In this document: positions 3,155 through 16,269 of the stretch, in pieces
Position numbering within the stretch: position 1 is the first letter of the stretch
Layout: every line of letters begins with the position of its first letter
Source: Desulfotruncus alcoholivorax DSM 16058
GTDB taxonomy: Bacteria > Bacillota > Desulfotomaculia > Desulfotomaculales > Desulfallaceae
Assembly (NCBI RefSeq): GCF_000430885.1
Contig: NZ_AUMW01000032.1
Span: 1-32,000, forward strand
Length of the DNA: 32,000 nt
Direction of reading: 5' to 3'
Position numbers and translations under genes: made by a program
Notes under the pieces: model-generated
Databases searched by the model: none
What the model was told of the DNA's origin: nothing
What the model saw: the letters and a program-made list of their open reading frames with translations, nothing else

Positions 3155-3292
3155 TTAATCCTGGCGGCATACCCTCTCATACCTCCCGGGATACCAGTGA
3201 ACAATGCCGGTTCCAGACTTTCCGTATTTATTACCCCGTTGAATCACGTGATATAATGCCCCAGCATACCCCACCCGCGGTTTCCTGCCCAA
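3155..3292 (-). pseudogene. N-terminal remnant of an IS200-like/REP-associated (Y1) tyrosine transposase-type gene
   Basis: From TTG 3292 the minus strand reads LGRKPRVGYAGALYHVIQRGNK.... This matches the very conserved N-terminus (xRxPRxxYxGAxYHVxxRGN) of Y1/RAYT-like proteins. After about 22 aa the frame degenerates. Weak traces in other frames continue to about 3080 (..GELYASVILDSS..). Confidence 0.45.
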
Positions 3293-3328
3293 AAAATAAC
3301 ACCTCCTGCCATATCTTAACAAGAGGTG
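3291..3328 (-). terminator. Rho-independent terminator downstream of the pilin gene
   Basis: The minus strand reads CACCUCUUG-(11 nt loop)-CAGGAGGUG, a 9-bp stem with one G-U pair, followed by UUAUUUUUU. It lies 55 nt after the pilin stop. Confidence 0.45.
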
Positions 3329-3383
3329 AAATAACTTTCAATAATAAGTTAATAAATTTGGTGCCTGGCACCCTATGGTGTTC

Positions 3384-3791
3384 TTACCAGGTAATAGGTA
3401 ATGACACCGCTGAAGTAGGGGTAAACCAAGCCCCCGTGTTAGAACCTTTTGTAACAGTAGCCCTAAAAGGAGCGCTTGTGGTTATACTATAAATTACCCC
3501 ATCAGGGCCAGTAGGCCAAGTTGCTAGATAATTGGGTACTAAATCAGGATTATCACCTGAAAAAGTAGGTGCAGTCGTTGTATTACCTGTATTAGCTTGA
3601 TATTGCATAATTGCACCGTCAATTGTTCTTAAATTTGCCTCAACTGCCGCTCGATTAGCTTTTGCTGTCGTCGAATTATACACCGGCACTGCTATTGCCG
3701 CCAAAATACCGATAATAACCACAACCACCATCAGTTCCACCAGGGTGAAGCCTTTACGGTTTTTCAGCGCATAACTAATTCTTTGAATCAC
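3384..3791 (-). CDS. pilA: Type IV pilin (prepilin-type N-terminal cleavage/methylation domain)
   Basis: There is a class III signal, ...KNRKG|FTLVELMVVVVIIGILAAIAVP, with Gly-1, Phe+1 and Glu+5. I chose GTG 3791 as start because GGGAGGTG sits 6 nt upstream. The track's TTG 3809 has no SD. Confidence 0.9.
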   Translation of the reverse strand: MIQRISYALKNRKGFTLVELMVVVVIIGILAAIAVPVYNSTTAKANRAAVEANLRTIDGAIMQYQANTGNTTTAPTFSGDNPDLVPNYLATWPTGPDGVIYSITTSAPFRATVTKGSNTGAWFTPTSAVSLPITW

Positions 3792-4004
3792 ATTATTCAC
3801 CTCCCTCAATAATTAATTGGTCAAGCACAAAAATTATTTTGTGCTGCCTTATTTATGCATTCTAACTTAAGTTATACCTGGAAAAATTAATTTTAGACAC
3901 TTAAATTAAAATAATTTTTCAATAAGTTTTTATTATCACCCGTGGGCGCCGTTTAACCTTCAACCGTTTTCCCCACAAGGGCATACCCCCGGCTACCCGC
4001 CTGA

Positions 4005-5309
4005 TTACCCGCCGGATGAGCTGGTTGACCCGCCTGATGACCCGCCTGACCCGACGCCTATTTCGTTGATCAAATCTTTAATCAACTGAGCTTTGTCGGG
4101 GGTTTCTTCCACCCACAAAACATATATTCTGTTCTTACTATCGATGGTGTCAGCGATATTCCCGGAAATGTGAAAGCTGCTCGTGGAGACGCCGGAAAGT
4201 TCACTTAGCAAACTGCGCATTGAGTTTACCTGGTTATAACTGCCGGTCAGCAACGGCACTTTGGTTTTTTCCCGGGTCTGGTCCAGGCTCACCAAGGCTG
4301 TCCGTACCCGGGTCTCCAGGTATGGCGGGCAGATAACCAGCAACTCATGGCCGAAGCGGTCATAGTTATATGCTTCAGACTTAACATCGGTAAAACCGAA
4401 TTCATCCAACCGTTTTTTAGCATCCCCGGCCACGATATTTTTTAATTGGAAAATGAATGCTTTATTCTTTTGGCCTGAATTTACGTCCAGCTGTTGCGCC
4501 AGCTTTTGCAGTTCCTCCCAGCGGGGGAACAATTCCCGGTCAAATACCAAAAGCCGGTTGTCTAAAATCACGTAACGTTTAAAAACCACACCCGCTCCGG
4601 CCATCAATTCGACCAGGCGGTCGGGTGTAATTGAATAGGTGGTTAAGGTTTTATGTTCCAGGGAAAGCTGGTTTTCCTTCTCATCCACCGCGTAGATGAG
4701 CTCCCGGACTTTTTGCAAAGTTTGCGCGGTTCCCTGAACCCAAATGGCATTAGGATTTGTATCCACCGTAATGTCGGTCTGGTCGATCCCAAGCTGACCG
4801 ATTAATTCTTTCATTTTATCCGCCGTGATATAATACAGGTCGAATTTGACCAGCAGCATCTGGTTGAAGAAATCACTCTTTAACGTCCCCGGGTCGCCGA
4901 CCACGATGATGTTGCCGTTCTGCAGGTAAGCCATTTTTTGGCTTTCAATGATTAGTTCAAGGGCTTTCCTGGCCGTTATATTGTCAGCCTTAAAATCTAT
5001 ACGTACCGGTTCGGATTTGGTCAGTATTATATTTACACCCAATTTGACGGCCAGCGCCGATAGAATATCCCTCAGGTCGGTATCCCTGACCTCCAATGAG
5101 ATTACACCGCCGTCCCCGGTAAACAGGGAGTCACTCACCCCGGCGGTGGCAGACCAGGCGGGTGTGCCTGTAAAATCCTCCGCTCCCGCGTCCGGATAGC
5201 CGTCGGCATAGGCCCTGCCGCATGACAACAGCGTCAATAGCAGGACAGCGGCCATAAAAATCAAAGCTCTCTCCGCAAAATTGATCCTATAACAGGTGTC
5301 CCGCCTCAA
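4005..5309 (-). CDS. Secretin N-domain (N0 plus repeated N1/ring-building-like domains) protein without a secretin beta-barrel; signal peptide with possible lipobox
   Basis: The N-terminus has a signal peptide, ...AAVLLLTLLSCGRAYA, with lipobox-like LLSC or an AYA|D cleavage site. Residues about 69-138 (VISLEVRDTDLRDILSALAVKLGVNIILTKSEPVRIDFKADNITARKALELIIESQKMAYLQNGNIIVVG) look like the PilQ/GspD N0 (STN-type) domain. About four ~70-aa repeats of the secretin_N pattern follow (e.g. FDLYYITADKMKELIGQLGI..VDTNPNAIWVQGTAQTLQKVRELIYAVD). The protein ends in a Gly/Ser tail. No ~250-aa secretin domain is present here or downstream. The TTG start overlaps the upstream stop (TTGA). Confidence 0.65.
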   Translation of the reverse strand: MRRDTCYRINFAERALIFMAAVLLLTLLSCGRAYADGYPDAGAEDFTGTPAWSATAGVSDSLFTGDGGVISLEVRDTDLRDILSALAVKLGVNIILTKSEPVRIDFKADNITARKALELIIESQKMAYLQNGNIIVVGDPGTLKSDFFNQMLLVKFDLYYITADKMKELIGQLGIDQTDITVDTNPNAIWVQGTAQTLQKVRELIYAVDEKENQLSLEHKTLTTYSITPDRLVELMAGAGVVFKRYVILDNRLLVFDRELFPRWEELQKLAQQLDVNSGQKNKAFIFQLKNIVAGDAKKRLDEFGFTDVKSEAYNYDRFGHELLVICPPYLETRVRTALVSLDQTREKTKVPLLTGSYNQVNSMRSLLSELSGVSTSSFHISGNIADTIDSKNRIYVLWVEETPDKAQLIKDLINEIGVGSGGSSGGSTSSSGG

Positions 5310-5887
5310 TTACCGTCACTCCCTTGCCCGCCTGCCGGCTGTTTTTGGTCTGCTGAATTCTGCGCCGCATTTTGATTGTTGTTTGGATTAACATTAACCC
5401 GGCCGTTGAATTTGAGTTCCAGGGACTGGTTGCCTGCTGTTAATATTACTGCATTCTTTTTGATCTCTTTTACTTTCCAACCGCCTTGGAGTTCTTCCCC
5501 CACTTTGACTACATAAGCAGTGTTGCCGGCTTCAATAATGGCCAGGTCGCCTCCATAACCCCCGTTGATAATTCCTTTAAGTTTCAGGGCGACATTAAAC
5601 GGATCCCGGACTTCCTGCCCGGTCTCCATTTTCCTTTTTAGTTCCGGTAAAAACGTGCTGGATGTCTTGGCGGCGTCCGGCTGCCCGGTGTCGTCTGTGA
5701 CAGTGCTTTGCTGTCCTTCCTGTTTGTTTTGAGATTCCTTGATAAAATTGTAATTTAGTTTAATTATGTAGATAAGACCGGCAAGGATAATAAAAACACA
5801 TACCACAACAATGAAAGTTTTCTTTTTATCCTTTTTCAATAATGTTTCAAGTTGTTTGAATAAATCTTTAATATTTTTGCCGGGCAA
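5306..5887 (-). CDS. PilP/GspC-HR-like bitopic pilus assembly protein
   Basis: One N-terminal TM helix (TFIVVVCVFIILAGLIYII) is followed by a low-complexity linker. Then comes RDPFNVALKLKGIINGGYGGDLAIIEAGNTAYVVKVGEELQGGWKVKEIKKNAVILTAGNQSLEL, the 'RDPF...L.GI....AII....Y.V.vGd.l.ggwkV..I....V.L' pattern of PilP / GspC homology-region domains. TTG 5887 is preceded by AAGGAGTG at 7 nt. Confidence 0.6.
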   Translation of the reverse strand: MPGKNIKDLFKQLETLLKKDKKKTFIVVVCVFIILAGLIYIIKLNYNFIKESQNKQEGQQSTVTDDTGQPDAAKTSSTFLPELKRKMETGQEVRDPFNVALKLKGIINGGYGGDLAIIEAGNTAYVVKVGEELQGGWKVKEIKKNAVILTAGNQSLELKFNGRVNVNPNNNQNAAQNSADQKQPAGGQGSDGN

Positions 5888-5929
5888 GTTTGTACACTCC
5901 TTGCTGGATGTAATTACTTCAAATGCAAA

Positions 5930-6460
5930 TCATTGGGCAAGGTAAAATACGCTGACTGATAAATCTGCCTTGAGATAGGCCGGGTCCTGGCTGTCTTTGG
6001 CCAATTTAACGGCATCAATGCGCATAGCCCTGGTGCCGTTTTGCAAACCGGTGATCAAATTGAACAAATCATTAAAACTACCCCGGCATGTCAGATTTAA
6101 CGGCATTTCCACATAACCTTTTTGGGTCACGCGCTCTTGAAAATTTATTTGCAACAGGTCCACGCCCGCTTGCGCAAAAATACTGTTGATTTGCTCAATT
6201 AGATTATTCTCCCCGGGGCCGGCCGGCAGCGCTTTTTCTATTTGCGCCGATTTTTCCCGCAATTCGGCTGACTTGTCCTTTAATTGAATTAAATTCTGCA
6301 GCCTGGTCCGGGCTTGGGCCAGGGCGTCGCGGTTGGCGGCCAATTCCGCACGCGCGCTTTTCAATGCGTTGATCTGGTTAAAGAGTAAAAAGCAAACCAG
6401 TAACAAAACCGCAACCCCGGAGAGCAGAACCAGCTTATCTTTCCGCTGCATACCATTCAT
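5930..6460 (-). CDS. pilO: Type IV pilus assembly protein PilO
   Basis: The architecture (N-terminal TM, coiled-coil, C-terminal ferredoxin-like domain) and the position after pilN fit PilO. The start overlaps the pilN stop (TAATG). Confidence 0.8.
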   Translation of the reverse strand: MNGMQRKDKLVLLSGVAVLLLVCFLLFNQINALKSARAELAANRDALAQARTRLQNLIQLKDKSAELREKSAQIEKALPAGPGENNLIEQINSIFAQAGVDLLQINFQERVTQKGYVEMPLNLTCRGSFNDLFNLITGLQNGTRAMRIDAVKLAKDSQDPAYLKADLSVSVFYLAQ

Positions 6461-7191
6461 TATTGGTTGACCACCGCCGTTCCACCCGCGGCAGGTACGG
6501 AAAGTCCGGGTAAAAGTTTCGCCTTGATTTCAAAACGAACGACAATTTCCCCGTCCAAATCTTCCTGGGACAACACCCGGCAGCTTGCTCCGGTTAGTCC
6601 CTTGACCTTACGAATATTGTTCAACATTTCAGCCGCGGCAAGCCGGTCGACCGCATACCCCGTGATAACTACCTCCCCGTCAAGCGGGGCTTCCTCATTT
6701 TGCCCCGGATTCATGCCCAGCACACTGCTTATTTTTGCTCCGGTATCAGCCGCCTTATTTCCAGCCGGTTTGCTTTCTGCCGCCTGCCCCACCGGCTGTG
6801 TTGCGGCTTTTGCCGTGCCCTGCCGGTAAGCGGCGGTAAAGTCAGCCAGCCAAACGCCGGGCGGCATATACTGCCCCAGATCGTACAAAATGCCAACCCA
6901 ATCGGGCGGGGCCCCCATAGCCTGCTTCAATATTTCTTGCCCATGATCAACCCGGGCCTGCAGATCGGCATATTGCTCCAGATCGGGGAATTTTTTCAGC
7001 AATGCTTCTCTTTCTTTGGCCAATTCGGCCGCATCCCCCCTGGCTTGCCAGGTTGCCACCAATAAAATGCCAAATACAAGCAGCAAAACAATACCTGCCA
7101 GGCTGCCGGCCGCCACCAGTTTCTGCTGCTTTTGCTTCAGTTCCCACTGTAATTTAATTTCAGGCGGCAATAAATTTATGTTTACATACAT
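6460..7191 (-). CDS. pilN: Type IV pilus assembly protein PilN
   Basis: The N-terminus MYVNINLLPPE carries the conserved INLLP PilM-binding motif, followed by one TM helix. There is a long low-complexity insert before the C-terminal domain. Confidence 0.85.
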   Translation of the reverse strand: MYVNINLLPPEIKLQWELKQKQQKLVAAGSLAGIVLLLVFGILLVATWQARGDAAELAKEREALLKKFPDLEQYADLQARVDHGQEILKQAMGAPPDWVGILYDLGQYMPPGVWLADFTAAYRQGTAKAATQPVGQAAESKPAGNKAADTGAKISSVLGMNPGQNEEAPLDGEVVITGYAVDRLAAAEMLNNIRKVKGLTGASCRVLSQEDLDGEIVVRFEIKAKLLPGLSVPAAGGTAVVNQ

Positions 7192-7194
7192 GCT

Positions 7195-8364
7195 TCAGGT
7201 CTCCATTCCCCTTAACGCCAGCCCCACGGCCACGGCAAAATCAGGGCCTTCTTGATGCCAATCGATATTGCGCGCGTTGACCGCGCCCTTAAAAGACACC
7301 GCCGGGTTGATTACTTCAACCGGTATGTCCAGTTCTGAATTTAATAATTCCCTTACACCTTCGGCCCGCGCCCCGCACCCGCTGAGAAACAGGCAGTCGA
7401 CAGTAACTGATTCCCGCTGGGCTAAATAAAAGCCAATGGATGATCTGATCTCCTCCGCCACTGCCCCGGCCCAGCTATACCAGGCGTTGACGGGCAATTC
7501 CACCGGTTTACGCTCTTGCTCCAAGCTAATATCACCCGGAGTAAAGCCATCCGGCTTGCTTTCGACCGCATAGGTGAAAGAATCCTGCTCAGTCTCCGGT
7601 ATCAGGTCACCGGGTAAAAAAATATCCGGCATGTTATCAGCAGCATGAGCAGAAGCCACCTGCCGCTCACTTTGCAATACTATATCAGCAAAATAATTAT
7701 CTTGATCTAAAGCAACCTGCAAATTGGTCGGGATTATTCTGACAAAACGGGGGATTCCCCCTGTTACCAACATCAGCGAGGTTATTCCATTGGAAATATC
7801 GGCGAATATGGTCGTACCCGCCAACCTGCTTTCAGGCACCGTGCGCATCAAGGCAAGGGGCGAGGCATCCACAATCCTGGGCGTCAAAGCTGCGCTGGAT
7901 ATGGCCTGCAGGCTTTTATCCAGCATATCCCGCCTTACGGCAACCATCAGCACTTCCAACCGCGGTCCGGTTTCACCTTGCGTTTCGCCTACAACGGCAA
8001 AATCCAGCATCATTTCCGTAACCGGTATGGGGAAATAGTCACCGGCCTGGAAACGCAGCATTTTATCCAGTTTGCTGAGCTCAATTTTGGGGAAATCAGC
8101 CAGGCGCATCAACACTCCTTGATTTGACACACCCAGCACCACTTCCCGGCTGCCGATACGATAACGGTCCCATAACTCCTTCAGCGCTCCGGTAACAGTT
8201 GCAACGTCTTCAATAACCCCTTCCACTATTGCTTCTTCCGGAATCTCGATTTGTTCCGCTTTGACCAGGTCGGCCGTGCGCAGCGTGCCGGTTATTTCGA
8301 CGGCACGGATAACCCCCGTTTCCAATTGCAGTCCCACCGCGCTTTTTTTTCTTAGAAATTTCAA
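7195..8364 (-). CDS. pilM: Type IV pilus assembly ATP-binding protein PilM (actin-like)
   Basis: The N-terminus reads KKSAVGLQLETGVIRAVEI...GVIEDVATVTGALKELW..LGVSNQGVLMRL.DFP, typical of PilM. The start is TTG 8364 with GAAGG 6 nt upstream. Confidence 0.9.
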   Translation of the reverse strand: MKFLRKKSAVGLQLETGVIRAVEITGTLRTADLVKAEQIEIPEEAIVEGVIEDVATVTGALKELWDRYRIGSREVVLGVSNQGVLMRLADFPKIELSKLDKMLRFQAGDYFPIPVTEMMLDFAVVGETQGETGPRLEVLMVAVRRDMLDKSLQAISSAALTPRIVDASPLALMRTVPESRLAGTTIFADISNGITSLMLVTGGIPRFVRIIPTNLQVALDQDNYFADIVLQSERQVASAHAADNMPDIFLPGDLIPETEQDSFTYAVESKPDGFTPGDISLEQERKPVELPVNAWYSWAGAVAEEIRSSIGFYLAQRESVTVDCLFLSGCGARAEGVRELLNSELDIPVEVINPAVSFKGAVNARNIDWHQEGPDFAVAVGLALRGMET

Positions 8365-8401
8365 AATTAACCTTCAGCTCCTTAGCACGGGTTTTCAGTG
8401 T

Positions 8402-9097
8402 TCAGGAAAAAAACCTGGCCAACAGTTCCAAGCTCTTTTTCAGCAAGCGGGAAACCTTTCGCTGGCTGACACCCAGGGCTTCCGCCGTTTCTCTTTGGGT
8501 CAGGCCATGATAAAAAAGCGCTTCTATCACTTTGCGCTGTATCTTTGACAGCTTGTCCAATGCCATTTTCAAGGCAATGCGGTCCTCTATCGGCAAGGTA
8601 AAACTTTCGTACCTCAAGCTGTGGATTTGTGAAATATCTATCTCATCTATGGAGACCCAGCCCGCGCGCATGGCTTGCAGCACGCCTTCTTCGCGCACGT
8701 TCAATGCACCGGCGATCTGGGCTATGGACGGCACTTCGCCGTTCAACTGCAAGTGGTCTTCGATGACCCGGTTGACCTTTTCCTGCAATTCAGCCACCCA
8801 AGCCGGCCGGTCAAAGGTTGCTTCCCGGCGGATCAAATGGCGCATTTCACCCATGATATAATGGCCGGCATAGGTGCTGAAAGACACTCCCCGGCTCCGG
8901 TCATAGCGTTTCGCCGCTTTAAGCAAACCCTCAAAGCCGGCCTGAAGAAGATCTTCTTTGCTTTGCCCGGGAGCATAGATATTGGCAAAATAATGCACAA
9001 GCCCGGTTCCTGCTACTACCAGTTCATGCAAGGCGGTTTCATCCTTGGCCTGCAGGTATGCCTCCATGGCTGCTTCAATTTTGGGGTAACCATTCAT
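8402..9097 (-). CDS. Group-3 sigma-70 family sigma factor (SigB/F/G-FliA-like)
   Basis: Region 2 reads DLLQAGFEGLLKAAKRYDRSRGVSFSTYAGHYIMGEMRHLIRR. Region 3 reads PSIAQIAGALNVREEGV. Region 4.2 HTH reads LTQRETAEALGVSQRKVSRLLKKSL. ATG 9097 has GGGAGG 6 nt upstream, inside the last codons of pilC. Confidence 0.9.
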   Translation of the reverse strand: MNGYPKIEAAMEAYLQAKDETALHELVVAGTGLVHYFANIYAPGQSKEDLLQAGFEGLLKAAKRYDRSRGVSFSTYAGHYIMGEMRHLIRREATFDRPAWVAELQEKVNRVIEDHLQLNGEVPSIAQIAGALNVREEGVLQAMRAGWVSIDEIDISQIHSLRYESFTLPIEDRIALKMALDKLSKIQRKVIEALFYHGLTQRETAEALGVSQRKVSRLLKKSLELLARFFS

Positions 9098-9100
9098 CTT

Positions 9101-10309
9101 TTACCTCCCTACTGAAGTCACCACGGTAAAGATAGGCAAGTAAACGGCTATTACAATGGAGCCGATGGTAATGCCCACAACTATCAGCAGCACCGGTTCC
9201 AACATGGCAGTCAGCCCCTTGGTCATGGCTGCCACTTCTTCCTCGTAAAAATCGGCCACCCGCCCCAGCAGAGTGGAAAGCTGGCCGGTTTCCTCGCCGA
9301 CGGCCACCATGTTAACCAGCATGGGCGGGAAAAATTCGCTCTTTTTCAGTAAAGAAGCTATACTTTGCCCTTCCTGGATGCCTTGGCCCGCCTGTTTGAC
9401 CGCCTCGGCAACCTGGATGCTGCCGGAGGCCGGGCCGGCCGCTTCCAGCGCCTGCAACACCGGGATGCCTCCGGACAGGAGGGTGGATAAAGTGCGTGAA
9501 AAGGCGGCGACGGTTGTTTTTTTAAAAAGCTCCCCCAGCACCGGCAGCCTGAACCTGAGTATATCCCATGCTTTCTTGCCGTTTGGGCCGGATAGATAGT
9601 AACGCAAACCAAAAATAAATCCGATCATCCCCAGGAAGCACAAATACCAGTAACTGCGCAGCACATTGCTGACCCCCACAACAATTCTGGTCGGCAGCGG
9701 CAGGCTGACGCCTTCCGGAAAGAAGCCGACAAAAATGGGGACAACGAACAACATCAGCGCCATGACCACGCAAAAAGCAAATATCAAAACCACCGACGGG
9801 TAAAAGGTGGCGGCCCGGATTTGGTCCTTCAGGTGTTTGCTGCGCTCCAGCTGGTCGGACAGCCGCCTTAGCATTTCTTCGATGGAACCGCTGATTTCAC
9901 CAGCTTTGATCATATCAACATACATGGAGGAAAAAGTTTCCGGGTATGCCCGCAGCGCATCGGAAAAACTGGCGCCGCTTTCCACGCTTCTGGCCACTTC
10001 ACCGATAATGTTGCTCAAAGTTGGGTTACTTGTCTGCTCCTGCAGGGTGAAAAGACAACGGGTCAGCGGGATGCCGGCGACGAGCATGGCCGCCAGCTGG
10101 CGGCTGAAAAAACTGATATCGCCGGTCTTTATTTTGCGCCGCCTGAACAAGGTGAAGGTAAAAGAAGTATTTTTCACCTCCGCCAGGTCTATGACCATGT
10201 AACCCATTTTCCGCAACTTGGCGACAGCGGAATTTTCCTGCTCCGCCTCCATTTTTCCGGATACCGGCACGCCTTTTGCGTCTATGGCTTCATATGTGTA
10301 AAGGGGCAT
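9101..10309 (-). CDS. pilC: Type IV pilus platform protein PilC (GspF family)
   Basis: Two T2SSF repeats are present, with the typical FSRQLA.ML.AGIPL and AFSRTLSTLLSGGIPVLQAL motifs, plus three TM segments. The ATG has an AGGAAGG SD. Confidence 0.95.
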   Translation of the reverse strand: MPLYTYEAIDAKGVPVSGKMEAEQENSAVAKLRKMGYMVIDLAEVKNTSFTFTLFRRRKIKTGDISFFSRQLAAMLVAGIPLTRCLFTLQEQTSNPTLSNIIGEVARSVESGASFSDALRAYPETFSSMYVDMIKAGEISGSIEEMLRRLSDQLERSKHLKDQIRAATFYPSVVLIFAFCVVMALMLFVVPIFVGFFPEGVSLPLPTRIVVGVSNVLRSYWYLCFLGMIGFIFGLRYYLSGPNGKKAWDILRFRLPVLGELFKKTTVAAFSRTLSTLLSGGIPVLQALEAAGPASGSIQVAEAVKQAGQGIQEGQSIASLLKKSEFFPPMLVNMVAVGEETGQLSTLLGRVADFYEEEVAAMTKGLTAMLEPVLLIVVGITIGSIVIAVYLPIFTVVTSVGR

Positions 10310-10329
10310 CGAACCAACCTTCCTGTCAA

Positions 10330-11415
10330 TTAAAAAGGTATATTTTTCTTCAAGGCCCGTTCCAGCTCAATACGGTCAACCGCCTTAATCAAGGCGTTTT
10401 CTCTGGAAATCAACCCGGACAGGCACAATTCGGCCAGGGCCTGGTCCATGGTTTGCATCCCCACATTGCGGCCGGTTTGCATAACCGTGTACAGCTGGTA
10501 TTCTTTACCTTCCCTGATTAAATTTTTAACCGCCGGGGTGGCCCAAAGTATTTCAACGGCGGCCACTCTGCCTTTGCCGTCAGCCCGGGGAATCAACTGC
10601 TGCGCCACAACGGATTGCAATGAATCGGAAAGCTGCTGCCTGATCTGGTTGCGGATGCCCTCCGGGAAAACGTCGACAATCCGGTGGATGGCCAGGGGCG
10701 CCGTTTGGGTGTGCAGCGTGGAAAAGACCAGGTGCCCGGTTTCAGCTGCGGTTAGCGCTATGGAGATACTTTCCATGTCCCTCATTTCACCGATTAAAAT
10801 AACGTCGGGGTCGTGGCGCAACACATGCTTTAGGGCCGCGGCAAAAGAATGGGTATCGCTGCCCACCTCGCGCTGCTTGATAATGGATTTCTTGTGGCTA
10901 TGTAAAAATTCAATGGGGTCTTCTACGGTAACTATGTTAAGGCAACGGTTTTCGTTGATCAGGTTTATAATTGATGCCAGTGTGGTTGATTTGCCGCTGC
11001 CTGTCGGGCCGGTCACCAGAACCAGGCCGCGTGGCAACCTGGCAATATTTTTCGCCGATGCCGGCAAGCCTAGGCTTTCAAATTTGGGGATTTCCATGGC
11101 CACCACCCTGAAATTAACCGCCAGCGAGCCACGCTGCCACATGATATTGCCCCGGAACCGGCTTAAGCCCGGTACGGAGTAGGAGAAGTCCAGTTCCAGC
11201 TCCTTTTCCAGGCGGTCCTTTTGCTTGGGCGTAAGGATTGCATATACCAGTTGCTCTATATCCTGCGGCATTAGCCGGGGCATATCCGTCGTTACCAGTT
11301 CACCGTTGATCCTGATTACAGGCGGCTTGCCGGCAGTCAGGTGTAAATCGGAACCATTCATTTTAACTGTACGGGTGAGAATTTCATTCATGTCCAGCCC
11401 CGCTTGCGAACTCAT
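10330..11415 (-). CDS. pilT: Twitching-motility retraction ATPase PilT
   Basis: The ORF is 361 aa. It has Walker A GPTGSGKSTT, Walker B/Asp box VILIGEMRD, a His box TGHLVFSTLHT and the PilT-specific AIHRIVDVFP motif. The start overlaps the pilB stop (ATGA). Confidence 0.95.
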   Translation of the reverse strand: MSSQAGLDMNEILTRTVKMNGSDLHLTAGKPPVIRINGELVTTDMPRLMPQDIEQLVYAILTPKQKDRLEKELELDFSYSVPGLSRFRGNIMWQRGSLAVNFRVVAMEIPKFESLGLPASAKNIARLPRGLVLVTGPTGSGKSTTLASIINLINENRCLNIVTVEDPIEFLHSHKKSIIKQREVGSDTHSFAAALKHVLRHDPDVILIGEMRDMESISIALTAAETGHLVFSTLHTQTAPLAIHRIVDVFPEGIRNQIRQQLSDSLQSVVAQQLIPRADGKGRVAAVEILWATPAVKNLIREGKEYQLYTVMQTGRNVGMQTMDQALAELCLSGLISRENALIKAVDRIELERALKKNIPF

Positions 11416-13082
11416 AATATCACCCTCATTAACTCTTCCAATGAAGTAATTCCTTGCTTTACCTTGATCAGTCCGTCCTGGCGGAGTGTGATCATTCCCT
11501 CGGCTATTGCAGCTTCCTTGATCTCCCTGGCCGGCCTGCGTTCCAGGGCCAGGCGCTGAATAGTTTCCGTCACAAACAGAAGTTCATAAATACCTGTGCG
11601 GCCCCGGTACCCGGTATTACTGCAGCGTATGCACCCCACGGGACGGTATAGTTTTACCCGGTCCTCTCCTTCATTAAAAGGAAAATCCGGTATATCCCCA
11701 AGCTCATCTCGCGTTATTTCGTATTCTTGTTTACAGTTCCGGCATAAAACCCGGGCCAGGCGCTGGGCTAAGATACAGACAATTGATGAAGCAGTTAAAA
11801 AAGGTTCAATACCCATTTCGGTCAGGCGGCTGATGGCGCCGGCCGCATCATTCGTATGCAGGGTGGAAAAAACCAGATGACCGGTTAAAGCAGCTTCAAT
11901 GGCCAACTTGGCTGTTTCCTGATCTCTTATTTCGCCTACCATGATAATATCCGGGTCACTCCGTAATATGGAGCGCAACCCGGATGCAAAAGTGAGACCG
12001 GCCTTGGGATTGATTTGTATCTGGTTAATGCCTTCCATGCGGTATTCAACCGGGTCTTCCACAGTGATAACATTTTTGGCCACCCTGTCCACGGTAATCA
12101 GGCTGGCATATAAACTTGTGCTTTTGCCGCTGCCGGTCGGGCCTGTAACCAGGATGCAGCCGTAGGGCATATTGATGGCATCCCGGTATTTTTGCAATAC
12201 CACTTGCTCAAGCCCCAATTCCTCCAGAGTTATTATTTTGGCCGACCGGTCCAGCAGCCGCAGGGTCAGTCGCTCGCCAAAACTTGCGGGCAGTGAAGCT
12301 ACCCTGGCGTCAATGGTGCGGCCCTCAATTTTAATGGACATACGGCCGTCCTGGGGAATTCTGCGCTCGGCAATGTTCATATTGGCCATTATTTTTATGC
12401 GCGAAACCAGCGAAGCGTGCATTTTCCTGGAAAGCTGCATCATATCATGCAAAACACCGTCAATTCTGAAACGTATCCTCAGCTGGCTTTCGTAAACTTC
12501 GATATGCACATCGCTGGCCTTGGCGTTCACAGCCTGGACCAAGATCATGTTGGCCAGTTGAACCGCAGGCTTAACTTCAGCGTCGCCTGCTTCAATATCA
12601 ACATCTTCTTCCGGCAGTTGTTCATCCGCTGATTGTTCAAACTCCAAATTAACCCGGCTGTATTTTTCCAGTGCCGCGCTGAATTCACTGTCCGGTACGA
12701 CTACCGGCTTGATATCATAGCCGGTTAATATGCGTATATCATCAATAGCCATAACGTTGTTGGGATGCTGCATGGCTACCAGCAGCTTATCCCCGCTAAA
12801 GCCAATGGGCAGTGCTTTATATTTTCTCTGGGCCTCCGTGGGCAACTTGGCTACGGCAGACGGGTCAATCGGGAATGTTTCAAGTGATACAAAAGGTATC
12901 CCGGCCCGTTTGGCCATAACCCTGGCGATATCTTCCTCCTTGCAATAACCTAAATCCACCAGGGCTTTGCCCAGAAAAACCCGGTTGGTTTTTTGATATT
13001 CCAATGCCTGTTCCAGTTGTTTCTGAGTAATGACCCCTTCTTGAACCAACCGGGAACCCAGAAAATCTTTGGTTAATTTCAT
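11412..13082 (-). CDS. pilB: Type IV pilus extension ATPase PilB (GspE family) with MshEN-type N-terminal domain
   Basis: It has Walker A GPTGSGKSTS, IIMVGEIRD, TGHLVFSTLHTN and a tetracysteine motif CRNCK...CIRCSNTGYRGR. I chose ATG 13082 (MKLTKDFLG...) because GGAGGA sits 4 nt upstream. The ATG at 13097 has its SD too close. Confidence 0.95.
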   Translation of the reverse strand: MKLTKDFLGSRLVQEGVITQKQLEQALEYQKTNRVFLGKALVDLGYCKEEDIARVMAKRAGIPFVSLETFPIDPSAVAKLPTEAQRKYKALPIGFSGDKLLVAMQHPNNVMAIDDIRILTGYDIKPVVVPDSEFSAALEKYSRVNLEFEQSADEQLPEEDVDIEAGDAEVKPAVQLANMILVQAVNAKASDVHIEVYESQLRIRFRIDGVLHDMMQLSRKMHASLVSRIKIMANMNIAERRIPQDGRMSIKIEGRTIDARVASLPASFGERLTLRLLDRSAKIITLEELGLEQVVLQKYRDAINMPYGCILVTGPTGSGKSTSLYASLITVDRVAKNVITVEDPVEYRMEGINQIQINPKAGLTFASGLRSILRSDPDIIMVGEIRDQETAKLAIEAALTGHLVFSTLHTNDAAGAISRLTEMGIEPFLTASSIVCILAQRLARVLCRNCKQEYEITRDELGDIPDFPFNEGEDRVKLYRPVGCIRCSNTGYRGRTGIYELLFVTETIQRLALERRPAREIKEAAIAEGMITLRQDGLIKVKQGITSLEELMRVIL

Positions 13083-13204
13083 CCAATCCTCCGACATTCT
13101 CCCTGATTATTAAATTAATTTCAAGAAAAAGAAACATATACCTGCTTATTGCGCAAAAATATCAATTGTTATAATCTGTTATTTTAATAACCACATATAC
13201 TAAT

Positions 13205-13240
13205 AAAATAAAAAAGCACGATACTTTTCAGTGATCGTGC
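13205..13240 (-). terminator. Intrinsic terminator forming the expression platform of the riboswitch leader
   Basis: The minus strand reads GCACGAUCAC-UGAAAA-GUAUCGUGC, a 9-bp stem with one bulged C, followed by UUUUUUAUUUUAUU. It lies about 120 nt upstream of the pilB start. Confidence 0.7.
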
Positions 13241-13330
13241 CTGGTAGTTCGACTGCCGTAGCTTATGCCTTAGGCCCGCAACTTTGCGCCCGCTTCTTTC
13301 GAAACGTTTGCCTTTTTCAGACTCTAAACG
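13241..13330 (-). promoter_or_regulatory. Class I cyclic-di-GMP riboswitch aptamer (GEMM-I)
   Basis: The minus-strand RNA is CGUUUAGAGUCUGAAAAAGGCAAACGUUUCGAAAGAAGCGGGCGCAAAGUUGCGGGCCUAAGGCAUAAGCUACGGCAGUCGAACUACCAG. It contains GGCAAAC, then a 6-bp hairpin capped by a GAAA tetraloop, then GGGCGCAAAG, then a CCUAAG...UACGG tetraloop-receptor-like pair, then a 3' ..CUACC. Order and spacing match what I remember for V. cholerae Vc2 (GGGCAAACCAUUCGAAAGAGUGGGACGCAAAGCC..CCUAA..GGUUACC). No covariance-model search was run. Confidence 0.7.
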
Positions 13331-13351
13331 GATATGTTTATATTTTGATTA

Positions 13352-13380
13352 ATTATAAATATAAATTATTTTAATTACAA
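13352..13380 (-). promoter_or_regulatory. Candidate sigma-A promoter driving the riboswitch-pilB operon
   Basis: The minus strand reads TTGTAA-17 nt-TATAAT in an AT-rich stretch. The predicted start site is about 15 nt upstream of the aptamer. Confidence 0.5.
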
Positions 13381-13432
13381 CATCAAAGGATATGTTTTTC
13401 CATAATCATGAATTAAAAATTATTTATAAACG

Positions 13433-13465
13433 ACGGGCGGGCGGACAGGGTCGTCCGCCCCTACA
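13433..13465. repeat. REP-like repeat family A, core-only copy
   Basis: The sequence is GACGGGC(GG)GCGGACAGGGTCGTCCGCCCCTACA, with the hairpin GGGCGGAC-N6-GTCCGCCC at 13439-13460. The same core occurs at 23422-23443 and about 26769-26790. Confidence 0.85.
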
Positions 13466-13517
13466 CCCTCTTCATCCACGGTGTCGTATGTACGGCACGG
13501 ATGACTATGCAGGAGAC

Positions 13518-13560
13518 AGGAGTCAGAATGCCCCGAGCTGGTTCTCTCATTCTGACTCCT
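13518..13560. repeat. Palindromic repeat family C, copy 1
   Basis: A perfect 13-bp inverted repeat, AGGAGTCAGAATG-N17-CATTCTGACTCCT, lies directly after the pilC2 stop. It shares CAGAATGCCCC and GGTTCTCTCATTCTGACTCCTGA with 21264-21318. Confidence 0.85.
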
Positions 13561-14801: not shown

Positions 14802-16256
14802 CTAATCTTCTGAATATGTGACGCGCATAACTTCCTGCAATGTTGTCAGCCCTTGCAATGCTTTCTCAATACCATCTTGTTTCAGTGAAACCAGGCCGCA
14901 GCCAACGGCTTTTTCCCTCAGCTCGTCAGCAGCGGCATTTTTGACAATTAACTGGCGCAGCCCCGAGTTCACCACCAAAACCTCATGAATCGGCAATCGC
15001 CCGCTATAACCGGTATAACCACACTTATCGCAGCCCTTACCGCGGTATAGCTTGACCACTTCAGTTTGACTGACATTTATAAACCGTCTTTCAGGTGCGT
15101 CCGTCTCCAGGTAGTAATCCTCTTTGCAATGCAGGCAAATAACCCGCACCAGCCGCTGGGCCACTACCCCCAGAACTGATGCGGCCACCAGAAAAGACTC
15201 GGCGCCCATATCCAAAAGACAGGTAATCGCCCCGATAGCGTCATTGGTGTGCATGGTTGATAACACCAGGTGCCCGGTATTGGCTGCACGGATGGCTATG
15301 CGGGCAGTTTCTTTGTCCCTTATTTCCCCCACCATAATAATATCCGGATCCTGGCGCAATATTGAGCGCAAACCGGCGGCGAAAGTCATTCCAGCCTTAT
15401 AGTTGACCTGGGTTTGGTTTATACCTTCAAGCAAGTATTCCACCGGGTCTTCCACGGTAACGATATTCTTTTCCAAATCATTGAGCTGGTTGAGGGCGGC
15501 ATACATGGTGGTGGTTTTCCCGCTGCCGGTGGGTCCGGTTAAAAGCACCATCCCATGGCTGTTGCACAATAACTTTTTAAACAAGTTTAGATTTTTCTCG
15601 GAAAAACCGATTTGTTTAAGTGTATAAGCAGTTATGTCGGATCTGTCGAGCAAACGGGCCACCACCTTTTCACCGTAGACGGTAGGCAGGGTGGAAACAC
15701 GCAAATCGATTTCCCTTCGTTCCAATATCAGTTGAATCCGGCCGTCCTGCGGCAAACGTTTTTCCGCAATATCCATAGCAGACATGATTTTGATTCTGGA
15801 TATTACCGCCCCCATGTCTTTACGCGGCAGCTGCATCTTTTGACGCAGCATGCCGTCAATCCTGAAGCGGACCCGAATACCTCTCGCATTTGGCTCAAAA
15901 TGAATGTCGCTGGCTTTTTCTTCAATAGCCTGAATGAAAATAGAATTGACCAGGCGGATAACCGGAGCGTCACTGGCCATGGTTTCTTCTTTGAGGCTCA
16001 TTGCTTCATAATCCTGTGTACTATAATCCTGGTCATCTTTAGCAACCTGTTCAATATTCTTCAGGGATTCTTTCCGGTCGCCGGCAAGTTGCTCAATATC
16101 AGCCTCGGAGGCAAAGCCGAGCTTGATTAATATCCGGCCTAATTTTTCGCCGGTTTTTGTTTGGACCCTGATGGCCTCCCACAACTGTTCTTTGGTTATG
16201 ATTCCTTTTTCAATCAGTTGGTAACCTAAAATTTTCTTGGATGAGGGAATGTCCAT
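14802..16256 (-). CDS. Second GspE/PilB-family assembly ATPase with MshEN-type N-terminus
   Basis: It has Walker A GPTGSGKTTT, IIMVGEIRD, TGHLVLSTMHTN and CLHCK...CDKCGYTGYSGR. The start is set at ATG 16256 (MDIPSSKK...), 9 nt after an AAGGAG that overlaps the aroB stop. The track's 16361 start would overlap aroB by 90 nt. Confidence 0.9.
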   Translation of the reverse strand: MDIPSSKKILGYQLIEKGIITKEQLWEAIRVQTKTGEKLGRILIKLGFASEADIEQLAGDRKESLKNIEQVAKDDQDYSTQDYEAMSLKEETMASDAPVIRLVNSIFIQAIEEKASDIHFEPNARGIRVRFRIDGMLRQKMQLPRKDMGAVISRIKIMSAMDIAEKRLPQDGRIQLILERREIDLRVSTLPTVYGEKVVARLLDRSDITAYTLKQIGFSEKNLNLFKKLLCNSHGMVLLTGPTGSGKTTTMYAALNQLNDLEKNIVTVEDPVEYLLEGINQTQVNYKAGMTFAAGLRSILRQDPDIIMVGEIRDKETARIAIRAANTGHLVLSTMHTNDAIGAITCLLDMGAESFLVAASVLGVVAQRLVRVICLHCKEDYYLETDAPERRFINVSQTEVVKLYRGKGCDKCGYTGYSGRLPIHEVLVVNSGLRQLIVKNAAADELREKAVGCGLVSLKQDGIEKALQGLTTLQEVMRVTYSED

Positions 16257-16269
16257 ACCCGCCATCTCC

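What the first reader, a model, noticed from the sequence alone, without database searches (positions are those of the whole stretch)
13205..13380. c-di-GMP class I riboswitch, with its own promoter and terminator, in front of the main type IV pilus operon
**Seen in the sequence.** The 490-nt gap between the first pilC (stop 13574) and pilB (start 13082) is not empty. On the minus strand it holds three elements in order:
- A promoter, TTGTAA-17-TATAAT (13352-13380).
- An RNA reading CUGAAAAAGGCAAACGUUUCGAAAGAAGCGGGCGCAAAGUUGCGGGCCUAAGGCAUAAGCUACGGCAGUCGAACUACC.
- A bulged 9-bp hairpin followed by U6AU4 (13205-13240).

The RNA carries, in order, GGCAAAC, a GAAA-capped 6-bp stem, GGGCGCAAAG, and a CCUAAG/UACGG receptor-like pair. 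These are the blocks I know from GEMM-I aptamers such as Vc2.

**Established.** GEMM-I senses c-di-GMP and is often found upstream of pilus and motility genes. C. difficile pilA1 is controlled by a class II c-di-GMP riboswitch.

**Inference.** Transcription of the nine genes from pilB to the secretin-N-domain gene, including the embedded sigma factor, is gated by c-di-GMP through termination control. I cannot tell ON from OFF polarity by eye.
Basis: partly seen in the sequence, partly recalled or inferred. Interest (0 to 1): 0.75.

Follow-up and report, generated by a model that had tools for sequence, protein, structure and literature searches.

The report
c-di-GMP riboswitch before pilus operon
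The gap in front of the pilB type IV pilus operon really does hold a standard class I c-di-GMP riboswitch with its own promoter and terminator, a well-known kind of element in a well-known kind of place, so it is real but ordinary.

Summary
Window 13322-13239 (minus strand) is a GEMM-I / c-di-GMP-I aptamer (Rfam E = 2e-12). It lies between a conserved sigma-A-type promoter (13380-13352) and a bulged intrinsic terminator (13240-13216, then U6AU4 to 13205). This is 120 nt upstream of pilB.

Rfam's top label is the variant model c-di-GMP-I-GGC. That label is a scoring artefact: the diagnostic position 47 is A (A13285), and G20 (G13312) and C92 (C13244) are canonical.

The four closest pilB orthologues all carry an RF01051 aptamer at the same place, and their helices covary. 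They are Desulfotruncus arcticus, Desulfallas sp. Bu1-1, Sporotomaculum syntrophicum and Desulforamulus putei.

The terminator's 5' arm starts inside the 3' arm of P1, and no antiterminator exists. The most likely logic is therefore an ON switch: c-di-GMP locks P1, the base of the terminator cannot form, and the pilus operon is read through. Polarity is inferred and only moderately secure, because the real overlap is 2 nt. D. putei has a different platform that looks like an OFF design.

PilB also carries an MshE-type c-di-GMP-binding motif, so the messenger may act on this operon twice.

Verdict: a new member of a known kind, of low to moderate interest.

The parts
13352..13380 (-). Sigma-A-type promoter: TTGTAA (13380-13375), 17-nt spacer, TATAAT (13357-13352). 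The predicted transcript start is near 13345.
   Evidence: Consensus scan gives 10 of 12 matches. TTGT and TATAAT are invariant in D. arcticus at the same distance from the aptamer. The transcript start is inferred, not mapped.
13239..13322 (-). c-di-GMP-I (GEMM-I) aptamer. P1 is 13322-13318 paired with 13243-13239. The P2 base is G13311 and C13310 paired with G13287 and C13286. The P2 upper stem is 13306-13301 paired with 13296-13291, capped by the GAAA loop 13300-13297. P3 is 13283-13273 paired with 13257-13246, with the receptor CCUAAG (13274-13269) opposite UACGG (13260-13256).
   Evidence: Rfam hit of 61.5 bits, E = 2.2e-12. My own covariance model scores 100 bits here. Covariation across five orthologues supports the helices.
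13312..13312 (-). G20 equivalent. This unpaired G reads one guanine of c-di-GMP. It is A in cGAMP-selective relatives.
   Evidence: Position follows the Rfam consensus alignment. The roles of G20, A47 and C92 are taken from PMC4744006 and PMC5888326.
13285..13285 (-). A47 equivalent. This is the position where the RF03167 (GGC) consensus has G and the RF01051 consensus has A. It is A here.
   Evidence: Column-by-column reading of the cmscan alignment shows a mismatch to the conserved G of RF03167. The RF01051 consensus reads GACGCAAAg.
13244..13244 (-). C92 equivalent. It forms the Watson-Crick partner of the second guanine of the ligand. C13243, next to it, opens P1.
13205..13242 (-). Intrinsic terminator. 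The 5' arm is G13240-U13234, followed by bulge C13233 and ACU. The loop is GAAA. The 3' arm is AGU then AUCGUGC (13222-13216). U6AU4 (13215-13205) follows. G13240 and C13239 are shared with the P1 3' arm, and A13242 and G13241 are also shared if the stem extends into the U run.
   Evidence: The hairpin is present in the minimum-energy and centroid folds. It folds at -11.3/-13.6 kcal/mol when whole and -5.3 when P1 holds the shared bases. The same register of overlap is seen in L001, L040 and L002, whose hairpin interiors are unrelated.
13104..13178 (-). Conserved block between the terminator and pilB. It contains the palindrome TTGCGCAA (13156-13149) and TTGAAA-17-GAGAAT (13124-13096). It may be a second promoter or an operator site.
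   Evidence: The block is about 85% identical to D. arcticus, whereas the stretch just after the terminator (13204-13180) is poorly conserved. It has no significant RNA fold, z = +0.3. Its function is not established.
11412..13092 (-). pilB with its ribosome-binding site: GGAGG at 13092-13088, ATG at 13082. It encodes a 556-aa type IV pilus assembly ATPase. Residues 8-58 match the MshE-type c-di-GMP-binding motif.
   Evidence: Pfam T2SSE (E = 9e-134) and MshEN. NCBIfam TIGR02538 PilB at 621 bits. NF053729 c-di-GMP_motif at 61.2 bits against a cutoff of 38.
4005..11415 (-). Rest of the operon: pilT (11415-10330), pilC (10309-9101), SigB/F/G-like sigma factor (9097-8402), pilM (8364-7195), pilN (7191-6460), pilO (6460-5930), a T2SSC-like gene (5887-5306) and a Secretin_N protein (5309-4005).
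   Evidence: ORF list, Pfam and NCBIfam. All genes share one strand with gaps of at most 42 nt, and no credible minus-strand terminator lies inside.
3291..3809 (-). Pilin gene (3809-3384, N-terminal methylation motif), followed by a strong terminator with a 12-bp stem at 3328-3300 and a T run. This is the possible true end of the unit.
   Evidence: Pfam N_methyl and the terminator scan. Co-transcription with the upstream genes is not shown, because a 195-nt gap lies before the pilin gene.

Best explanation
This is a canonical class I c-di-GMP riboswitch (GEMM-I, tetraloop-receptor type). It sits in the 5' leader of the pilB-pilT-pilC-sigma-pilMNO-secretin-like operon of a Desulfotruncus/Desulfallas-like Firmicute.

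Transcription starts near 13345 from a sigma-A promoter. The aptamer is complete once C13239 is made. The next 25-35 nt encode an intrinsic terminator whose two bottom G-C pairs use G13240 and C13239. Those are the same bases that close the outer end of P1.

Without c-di-GMP, P1 is weak (5 bp, -4 kcal/mol). The terminator forms and most transcripts end near 13210-13205. With c-di-GMP bound, P1 is locked. The hairpin is then cut to 5+3 weak pairs set 2 nt back from the U run, so RNA polymerase reads through into pilB. This makes it an ON switch.

What is shown: the aptamer's identity, its conservation and covariation, and the overlap with the terminator. What is inferred: ligand binding, the transcript ends and the polarity.
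For: **Identity.**
- Rfam gives E = 2.2e-12, and a second clan member also passes its gathering score.
- G20, A47, C92 and the C44-G83 equivalents are all canonical.
- The orthologues L001, L040, L002 and L003 hit RF01051 at 72, 62, 51 and 87 bits, 80-240 nt upstream of pilB.
- 96.5% of cells are paired, and 8 pairs carry double changes.

**Platform.**
- The terminator is in the minimum-energy and centroid folds.
- It folds at -11.3/-13.6 kcal/mol when whole and -5.3 when P1 holds the shared bases.
- No antiterminator exists. The best fold in which the terminator's 5' arm pairs only upstream is 7.4 kcal/mol worse.
- Four species keep the same register of P1-terminator overlap although the hairpin interiors differ.
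- The shared base covaries with both of its partners: G/C/G in the window and L001, A/U/A in L040 and L002.
- In L040, only 4 bp with a 14-nt loop would remain once P1 forms.
- The full-P1 and full-terminator states lie within 0.5-4 kcal/mol of each other in all four species, as expected for a poised switch.

**Precedent.**
- Terminators that overlap the 3' side of GEMM were read as ligand-ON designs when the motif was first described. pilM, pilO, pilQ and pulF were already listed then as GEMM-associated genes (PMC1950547).
- Bc2 of B. thuringiensis is a validated compact class I ON switch whose terminated product is about 121 nt (PMC4933901).
- The Geobacter pilM GEMM-I is a validated ON switch (PMC9262584).
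- c-di-GMP turns type IV pili ON in C. difficile (PMC6366702).
Against: - The real overlap is only 2 nt. Nearest-neighbour energies put the aptamer with a 3-bp inner P1 plus a whole terminator at -30.4 kcal/mol. The full P1 plus a truncated terminator comes to -28.2. Aptamer and terminator could therefore coexist in this species.
- All seven functional class I riboswitches of C. difficile are OFF switches (PMC6366702).
- The D. putei orthologue (L003) has a separate terminator. It also has a 7-bp antiterminator, CUUAGGU paired with ACCUAAG, which is the minimum-energy fold at the intermediate transcript length. That is an OFF-type design.
- There is no experimental data on binding, transcript ends or regulation.
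- The conserved block at 13178-13104 could hold a promoter that bypasses the switch.
Confidence: 0.6

Rival explanations
1. Same aptamer, opposite logic. It is an OFF switch in which c-di-GMP binding favours termination and represses the pilus operon.
For: - The aptamer core and a whole terminator can coexist on paper: -30.4 against -28.2 kcal/mol.
- All class I switches of C. difficile are OFF.
- The D. putei orthologue has an antiterminator that competes with P1.
Against: - An OFF switch needs an apo-state antiterminator. None is found in the window, and the best alternative is 7.4 kcal/mol worse than the terminator fold.
- The terminator abuts P1 with no spacer in four species.
- In L040 and L002 the full-P1 state is slightly more stable than the coexisting state.
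Confidence: 0.2
2. It is a true c-di-GMP-I-GGC variant riboswitch, as Rfam's top label says, with an altered or unknown ligand.
For: RF03167 is the reported best hit, at 61.5 bits against a gathering score of 59.
Against: - The conserved G that separates the RF03167 consensus (CGCGAAg) from RF01051 (CGCAAAg) is A here (A13285).
- The 93%-identical D. arcticus aptamer scores 72 bits on RF01051.
- Three other RF03167 best hits near pilB (L021, L031, L033) also carry A at that position. The label therefore reflects a short distal P3, not the variant base.
Confidence: 0.03
3. It is a cGAMP-sensing GEMM-Ib riboswitch, like the Geobacter pilM leader.
For: It belongs to the same fold family and sits in front of pilus genes, as in Geobacter.
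Against: - Position 20 is G (G13312) in all five orthologues. In my recollection of Kellenberger 2015 and Nelson 2015, cGAMP selectivity goes with A at this position.
- PilB carries a c-di-GMP-type MshEN motif.
Confidence: 0.03
4. The aptamer binds c-di-GMP but the terminator is constitutive or leaky. Real control of pilB would then come from the conserved block downstream (a second promoter or operator), and the riboswitch would contribute little.
For: - The overlap is only 2 nt and the states are near-isoenergetic.
- The block at 13178-13104 is about 85% conserved and contains a promoter-like site.
Against: - The aptamer, the register of P1-terminator overlap and the promoter are all conserved across four genera.
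- The promoter-like site would start transcription inside the ribosome-binding site.
Confidence: 0.12

Closest known systems
c-di-GMP-I riboswitch (GEMM-I, Rfam RF01051), type 1 with GAAA tetraloop and receptor, e.g. Vc2 of Vibrio cholerae
   Same: It has the same P1/P2/P3 architecture, the GAAA loop and an 11-nt-type receptor. It has the AAA linker and the canonical G20, A47, C92 and C44-G83 equivalents.
   Different: The receptor reads UACGG instead of UAUGG, and distal P3 is only 2-3 bp with an AUAA loop. These features lower the RF01051 score and let RF03167 win the clan competition. The output here is a transcription terminator, whereas neither V. cholerae class I riboswitch acts through termination (PMC6366702).
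Bc2 riboswitch of Bacillus thuringiensis (class I, upstream of cap)
   Same: It is a compact fusion of aptamer and intrinsic terminator in a Firmicute. It is a validated ON switch that controls a surface-adhesion function.
   Different: It controls a different gene, and its sequence was not compared here. In the window the overlap is confined to the last 2-4 nt of P1.
Geobacter pilM GEMM-Ib riboswitch
   Same: It is a GEMM-I fold in front of type IV pilus assembly genes. It is a transcriptional ON switch in which aptamer and terminator are mutually exclusive.
   Different: It senses cGAMP. Its terminator sequesters the C92 equivalent and much of the aptamer, whereas here C13244 stays free.
Cdi-2-4, the class II c-di-GMP riboswitch upstream of pilA1 in C. 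difficile
   Same: c-di-GMP controls a Gram-positive type IV pilus operon through termination and read-through, and it is an ON switch.
   Different: It has an unrelated aptamer fold (class II) and precedes the major pilin gene, not pilB.
c-di-GMP-I-GGC variant (Rfam RF03167)
   Same: It has the same fold and clan, and it is the formal best-scoring model here.
   Different: Its defining G at position 47 is absent, so the window RNA is not a member.

Membership tests
c-di-GMP-I riboswitch (RF01051 / GEMM-I) | The covariance-model score reaches the curated gathering threshold. | tested here: met
   The clan hit is 61.5 bits, E = 2.2e-12. One further clan family passed its own gathering score but was hidden by clan competition, and its identity and score cannot be seen. 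Orthologous leaders score 51-87 bits on RF01051 against a gathering score of 35.
c-di-GMP-I riboswitch (RF01051 / GEMM-I) | P1, P2 and P3 helices supported by covariation. | tested here: met
   All 23 modelled pairs are standard pairs in the window. Across five orthologues, 96.5% of cells are paired and 8 pairs carry compensatory changes. No shuffle out of 500 reached the observed score, and slid controls pair only 33-45%. With only five sequences, the statistical power is limited.
c-di-GMP-I riboswitch (RF01051 / GEMM-I) | GNRA tetraloop on P2 docking into a receptor in P3 (type 1 GEMM). | tested here: met
   The GAAA loop is at 13300-13297. CCUAAG (13274-13269) lies opposite UACGG (13260-13256), one base off the canonical UAUGG. 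The four orthologues have UAUGG or AAUGG. The definition follows PMC1950547.
c-di-GMP-I riboswitch (RF01051 / GEMM-I) | Ligand-contact nucleotides G20, A47 and C92, plus the interhelical C44-G83 pair. | tested here: met
   G13312, A13285, C13244, C13288 and G13253 occupy these positions in the alignment to the Rfam consensus. Their roles are taken from PMC4744006 and PMC5888326.
c-di-GMP-I riboswitch (RF01051 / GEMM-I) | 5' regulatory position with an expression platform coupled to the aptamer. | tested here: met
   The order is promoter, aptamer, terminator, then pilB on one strand. The terminator's 5' arm overlaps the P1 3' arm.
c-di-GMP-I riboswitch (RF01051 / GEMM-I) | Selective, high-affinity binding of c-di-GMP and a ligand-dependent change in termination. 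| not testable with these tools
   This needs in-line probing or ITC, and single-round transcription.
c-di-GMP-I-GGC variant (RF03167) | G in place of A at position 47. This reading of the name (G20, G47, C92) comes from memory of Weinberg et al. 2017 PNAS, which is not held in the library. It agrees with the one consistent difference between the two Rfam consensus lines. | tested here: not met
   The conserved G of the RF03167 consensus (CGCGAAg) aligns to A13285 with no match symbol.
cGAMP riboswitch (GEMM-Ib) | A in place of G at position 20. | tested here: not met
   G13312 is present, and G is invariant at this column in all five orthologues. The rule itself is from my own knowledge, supported loosely by PMC9262584.
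MshEN-type c-di-GMP receptor domain (in PilB) | [quoted passage not shown] | tested here: inconclusive
   NCBIfam NF053729 scores 61.2 bits against a cutoff of 38 over residues 8-58, and the spacing is exactly 5 residues. However, both motifs start with F instead of R (FLGSRLVQEGVI..., FLGKALVDLGYC...). The second motif ends in R instead of Q. The motif is taken from PMC5013675.

The most novel reading that the evidence does not exclude
Orthologous pilB leaders in sister genera may use the same c-di-GMP-I aptamer with opposite logic. The window, D. arcticus, Desulfallas and Sporotomaculum have a compact P1-terminator fusion that reads as ON. Desulforamulus putei has a spacer, an antiterminator and a separate terminator, which reads as OFF. 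In the window lineage the riboswitch would also form a coherent two-step c-di-GMP input. The RNA gates pilB transcription, and an unusual F-for-R MshEN motif in PilB gates motor activity.
Probability: 0.2. Interest if true: 0.45.

Novelty: new member of a known kind. Interest (0 to 1): 0.25.

Why it matters
The finding ties type IV pilus production to c-di-GMP in sulfate-reducing, spore-forming Firmicutes of the Desulfotomaculum group, where second-messenger control of surface behaviour has hardly been studied. It gives a concrete RNA to test in a cultivable relative, D. arcticus DSM 17038.

It also gives a practical warning for annotation. Rfam's clan competition can label a canonical c-di-GMP-I aptamer as the GGC variant when distal P3 is short. 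That happened in four of four such calls checked here.

It does not change what is known about riboswitches. GEMM-I in front of pilus genes, with a terminator overlapping the aptamer, was described when the motif was first reported in 2007.

Tried and rejected
- **RF01051 score.** I tried to see the RF01051 score for the window directly. The tool keeps only the best clan member, so it stayed hidden.
- **GGC paper.** The paper that defines the GGC variant (PMC5358364) and Sudarsan 2008 (PMC5304454) are not held. The full-text search for the GGC name returned only lists.
- **Metagenome DNA pattern.** A pattern for the aptamer of this clade found nothing.
- **Metagenome PilB scan.** The closest relatives had at most 67% identity. 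Only one riboswitch hit turned up, L121, about 770 nt upstream of pilB; a second, weak match (L129) lies downstream of pilB.
- **Antiterminator search.** I used duplex folding and constrained folding to look for one in the window, and nothing convincing appeared.
- **Structured RNA downstream.** The 120 nt between the terminator and pilB show no significant fold (z = +0.3) and no Rfam match.
- **Rejected: GGC variant.** Position 47 is A.
- **Rejected: cGAMP sensor.** Position 20 is G.
- **Rejected: chance match.** The E-value, conservation in four genera and covariation all argue against it.
- **Rejected: ATG at 13097 as the pilB start.** The ribosome-binding site fits 13082.

Full report
**1. 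The observation**

- The promoter TTGTAA-17-TATAAT (13380-13352) is the best consensus match in the region, at 10 of 12 positions.
- The quoted RNA is 13320-13243.
- The hairpin GCACGAU-C-ACU-GAAA-AGU-AUCGUGC (13240-13216) is followed by U6AU4 down to 13205.
- The hairpin appears in both the minimum-energy and the centroid fold of the leader. It is worth -11.3 kcal/mol, or -13.6 if it extends by A-U and G.U into the U run.
- The simple terminator scan missed it only because of the bulged C.

A scan of all 32 kb against Rfam gives a single hit: 13321-13239 on the minus strand, in the c-di-GMP-I clan, at 61.5 bits and E = 2.2e-12. This is far beyond chance.

**2. Which family**

The reported best model is RF03167, c-di-GMP-I-GGC, only 2.5 bits above its gathering score. 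A second family of the same clan also passed its own threshold but was suppressed by clan competition.

Reading the alignment column by column settles the matter. The one conserved base that separates the RF03167 consensus (GACGCGAAg) from the RF01051 consensus (GACGCAAAg) is A in the window (A13285). It is shown as a mismatch to RF03167.

The nucleotides that contact the ligand in Vc2 are G20, A47 and C92 (PMC4744006; PMC5888326). Their equivalents here are G13312, A13285 and C13244. The equivalents of the universally conserved interhelical C-G pair are C13288 and G13253. All are canonical.

The RNA is therefore an ordinary class I aptamer. RF03167 wins because distal P3 is short (GC-AUAA-GC) and the receptor reads UACGG rather than UAUGG, both of which cost score on RF01051.

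The same mislabel occurs for three other aptamers near pilB genes that I checked. L021, L031 and L033 are all reported as RF03167, and all carry A at that position.

**3. Relatives**

A scan of one genome per species with the PilB protein places the window next to Desulfotruncus arcticus DSM 17038 (90% PilB identity). Desulfallas sp. Bu1-1 (76%), Sporotomaculum syntrophicum (71%) and Desulforamulus putei (71%) follow.

All four have an RF01051 aptamer on the pilB strand, 80-240 nt upstream of the pilB start, at 72, 62, 51 and 87 bits. The next thirteen homologues, at 49-69% identity, have none.

I aligned the five aptamers and tested the structure:
- 96.5% of cells are standard pairs, against 33-45% when partners are slid by 1-3 columns.
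- 8 of 23 pairs show changes on both sides.
- No shuffle out of 500 reached the observed covariation score.

Five sequences make a small sample, but the signal is clean, especially in the GAAA-capped stem, where 5 of 6 pairs are compensatory.

A covariance model built from these five also found class I aptamers near pilB in an unrelated lineage, the Candidatus Fervidifonticultor and Armatimonadota MAGs. In L031 the aptamer runs straight into the start of a 737-aa PilB. In L021 it precedes a sigma-factor gene beside pilB.

**4. Context**

Downstream of the leader lie nine tightly packed genes on one strand:
- pilB (T2SSE plus MshEN; TIGR02538 at 621 bits)
- pilT
- pilC
- a SigB/SigF/SigG-like sigma factor
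- pilM, pilN and pilO
- a T2SSC-like protein
- a protein with a Secretin_N domain

No credible intrinsic terminator lies inside this run. After a 195-nt gap comes a pilin gene (3809-3384), followed by a strong terminator at 3328-3300. The unit may therefore have ten genes.

Upstream lie aroE, aroC, aroK and aroB, then a second PilB-like ATPase and pilC. This upstream cluster ends in a very stable pair of hairpins at 13560-13420 (z = -5.5). That fits the riboswitch leader starting a new transcript.

**5. How it most likely works**

P1 is GUCUG (13322-13318) paired with CAGGC (13243-13239). The terminator's bottom two G-C pairs use G13240 and C13239. If the stem extends into the U run, it also uses A13242 and G13241. 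No spacer separates aptamer and terminator.

No antiterminator exists. The best fold in which the terminator's 5' arm pairs only with upstream sequence is 7.4 kcal/mol worse than the terminator fold. So the default, ligand-free outcome is termination, and the only structural link to the aptamer is competition for the P1 3' arm.

With P1 closed, the hairpin shrinks from -11.3 to -5.3 kcal/mol and sits 2 nt away from the U run. From general knowledge of intrinsic terminators, this should greatly weaken termination. That makes an ON switch.

Comparative support for this reading:
- The same register of overlap is kept in L001, L040 and L002, although the hairpin interiors are unrelated.
- The shared base changes together with both of its partners: G/C/G in the window and L001, A/U/A in L040 and L002. 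This is weak evidence, because G.U intermediates would also pair.
- In L040, a closed P1 leaves only 4 bp around a 14-nt loop.
- The full-P1 and full-terminator states lie within 0.5-4 kcal/mol of each other in all four species. A switch tipped by about 10 kcal/mol of ligand binding should look like this.

Precedents from the literature:
- The 2007 description of GEMM read terminators overlapping the aptamer's 3' side as ligand-ON designs. It listed pilM, pilO, pilQ and pulF among the controlled genes (PMC1950547).
- Bc2 is a validated compact class I ON switch (PMC4933901).
- The Geobacter pilM GEMM is ON (PMC9262584).
- c-di-GMP turns pili ON in C. difficile (PMC6366702).

**6. Caveats on polarity**

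- In the window itself, the computed energy of an aptamer with only the three inner P1 pairs plus a whole terminator is -30.4 kcal/mol. That is slightly better than full P1 plus a truncated terminator, at -28.2. The two could coexist unless ligand binding specifically needs the full P1.
- The window for ligand binding before the terminator is complete is only about 25-35 nt of transcription.
- Class I switches in C. difficile are all OFF.
- The D. putei leader is built differently. A 5-nt linker and the start of its P1 3' arm (CUUAGGU) are complementary to ACCUAAG in the 5' arm of a separate terminator. This 7-bp antiterminator is the minimum-energy fold at the intermediate transcript length. 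That is the classic OFF layout.

I therefore rate the identity of the element at about 0.9. The ON reading for this window I put at about 0.6, conditional on that identity.

**7. A second possible c-di-GMP input**

PilB residues 8-58 match NCBIfam's MshE-type c-di-GMP-binding motif at 61.2 bits, against a cutoff of 38. The two 24-residue motifs have the exact 5-residue spacer described for MshEN (PMC5013675). However, both begin with F instead of the guanine-stacking R, and the second ends in R instead of Q. Whether the domain binds c-di-GMP is open.

If it does, the messenger would gate both synthesis and activity of the pilus motor. The upstream PilB-like ATPase also has the motif.

**8. Verdict**

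The element is a new member of a thoroughly known riboswitch class, in a gene context known for that class since 2007. Interest is low to moderate.

The points worth keeping are the Rfam mislabel, the minimal P1-terminator overlap design, the possibly opposite platform in D. putei, and the conserved block of unknown function between the terminator and pilB.

Noticed in passing
window 13104-13178 (minus strand): A block of about 75 nt between the riboswitch terminator and pilB is about 85% identical to D. arcticus, while the 25 nt just after the terminator are not conserved. The block holds the perfect palindrome TTGCGCAA (13156-13149), an AGGTATA...GAAAT stretch and TTGAAA-17-GAGAAT (13124-13096). 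It has no significant RNA fold. It may be an operator or a second promoter that bypasses the riboswitch.
   Followed up: partly
window 12909-13082 (PilB residues 1-58) and 14802-16361 (upstream PilB-like ATPase): Both ATPases match the MshE-type c-di-GMP-binding motif (NF053729, 61 and 53 bits). In PilB, both 24-residue motifs start with F instead of the conserved R, and the second ends in R instead of Q.
   Followed up: partly
L003 2837-2975 (Desulforamulus putei): The orthologous pilB riboswitch has the highest RF01051 score (87 bits) but a different platform. A 7-bp antiterminator (CUUAGGU paired with ACCUAAG) competes with P1, and a separate terminator lies 28 nt before pilB. This suggests OFF logic, opposite to the window clade.
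   Followed up: partly
L021 6058-6132(-), L033 6063-6137(-), L031 2360-2445(+), L020 675-760(-): Rfam calls these aptamers near pilB in the Fervidifonticultor and Armatimonadota MAGs c-di-GMP-I-GGC. The three I read (L021, L031, L033) have A, not G, at position 47. The RF03167 label near its threshold is therefore unreliable.
   Followed up: yes
L031 2360-2445 and L021 5171-6133: In a distant phylum, class I aptamers sit directly against the start of a long PilB (737 aa, with canonical MshEN motifs). Another sits in front of a sigma-factor gene next to pilB. This echoes the sigma factor embedded in the window's pil operon.
   Followed up: partly
window 13420-13560 (minus strand): Two very stable hairpins follow the upstream pilC-like gene: a 14-bp stem, CAGGAGUCAGAAUG paired with CAUUCUGACUCCUG, and GGGCGGAC paired with GUCCGCCC. 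The region folds at z = -5.5. Neither hairpin has a clean U run and neither is homologous to the D. arcticus spacer. They probably mark the end of the upstream transcript, but the type of element is unclear.
   Followed up: partly
window 8402-9097 (minus strand): A 231-aa sigma factor lies between pilC and pilM. It is closest to the SigB/SigF/SigG subfamily but scores well below every equivalog cutoff (129 bits against 234). If the riboswitch gates the operon, c-di-GMP would also gate this sigma factor and whatever regulon it controls.
   Followed up: no
window 3291-3809 (minus strand): A pilin gene with an N-terminal methylation motif lies 195 nt downstream of the Secretin_N gene. A strong 12-bp terminator follows it. 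The pilus unit may end here rather than at 4005.
   Followed up: no
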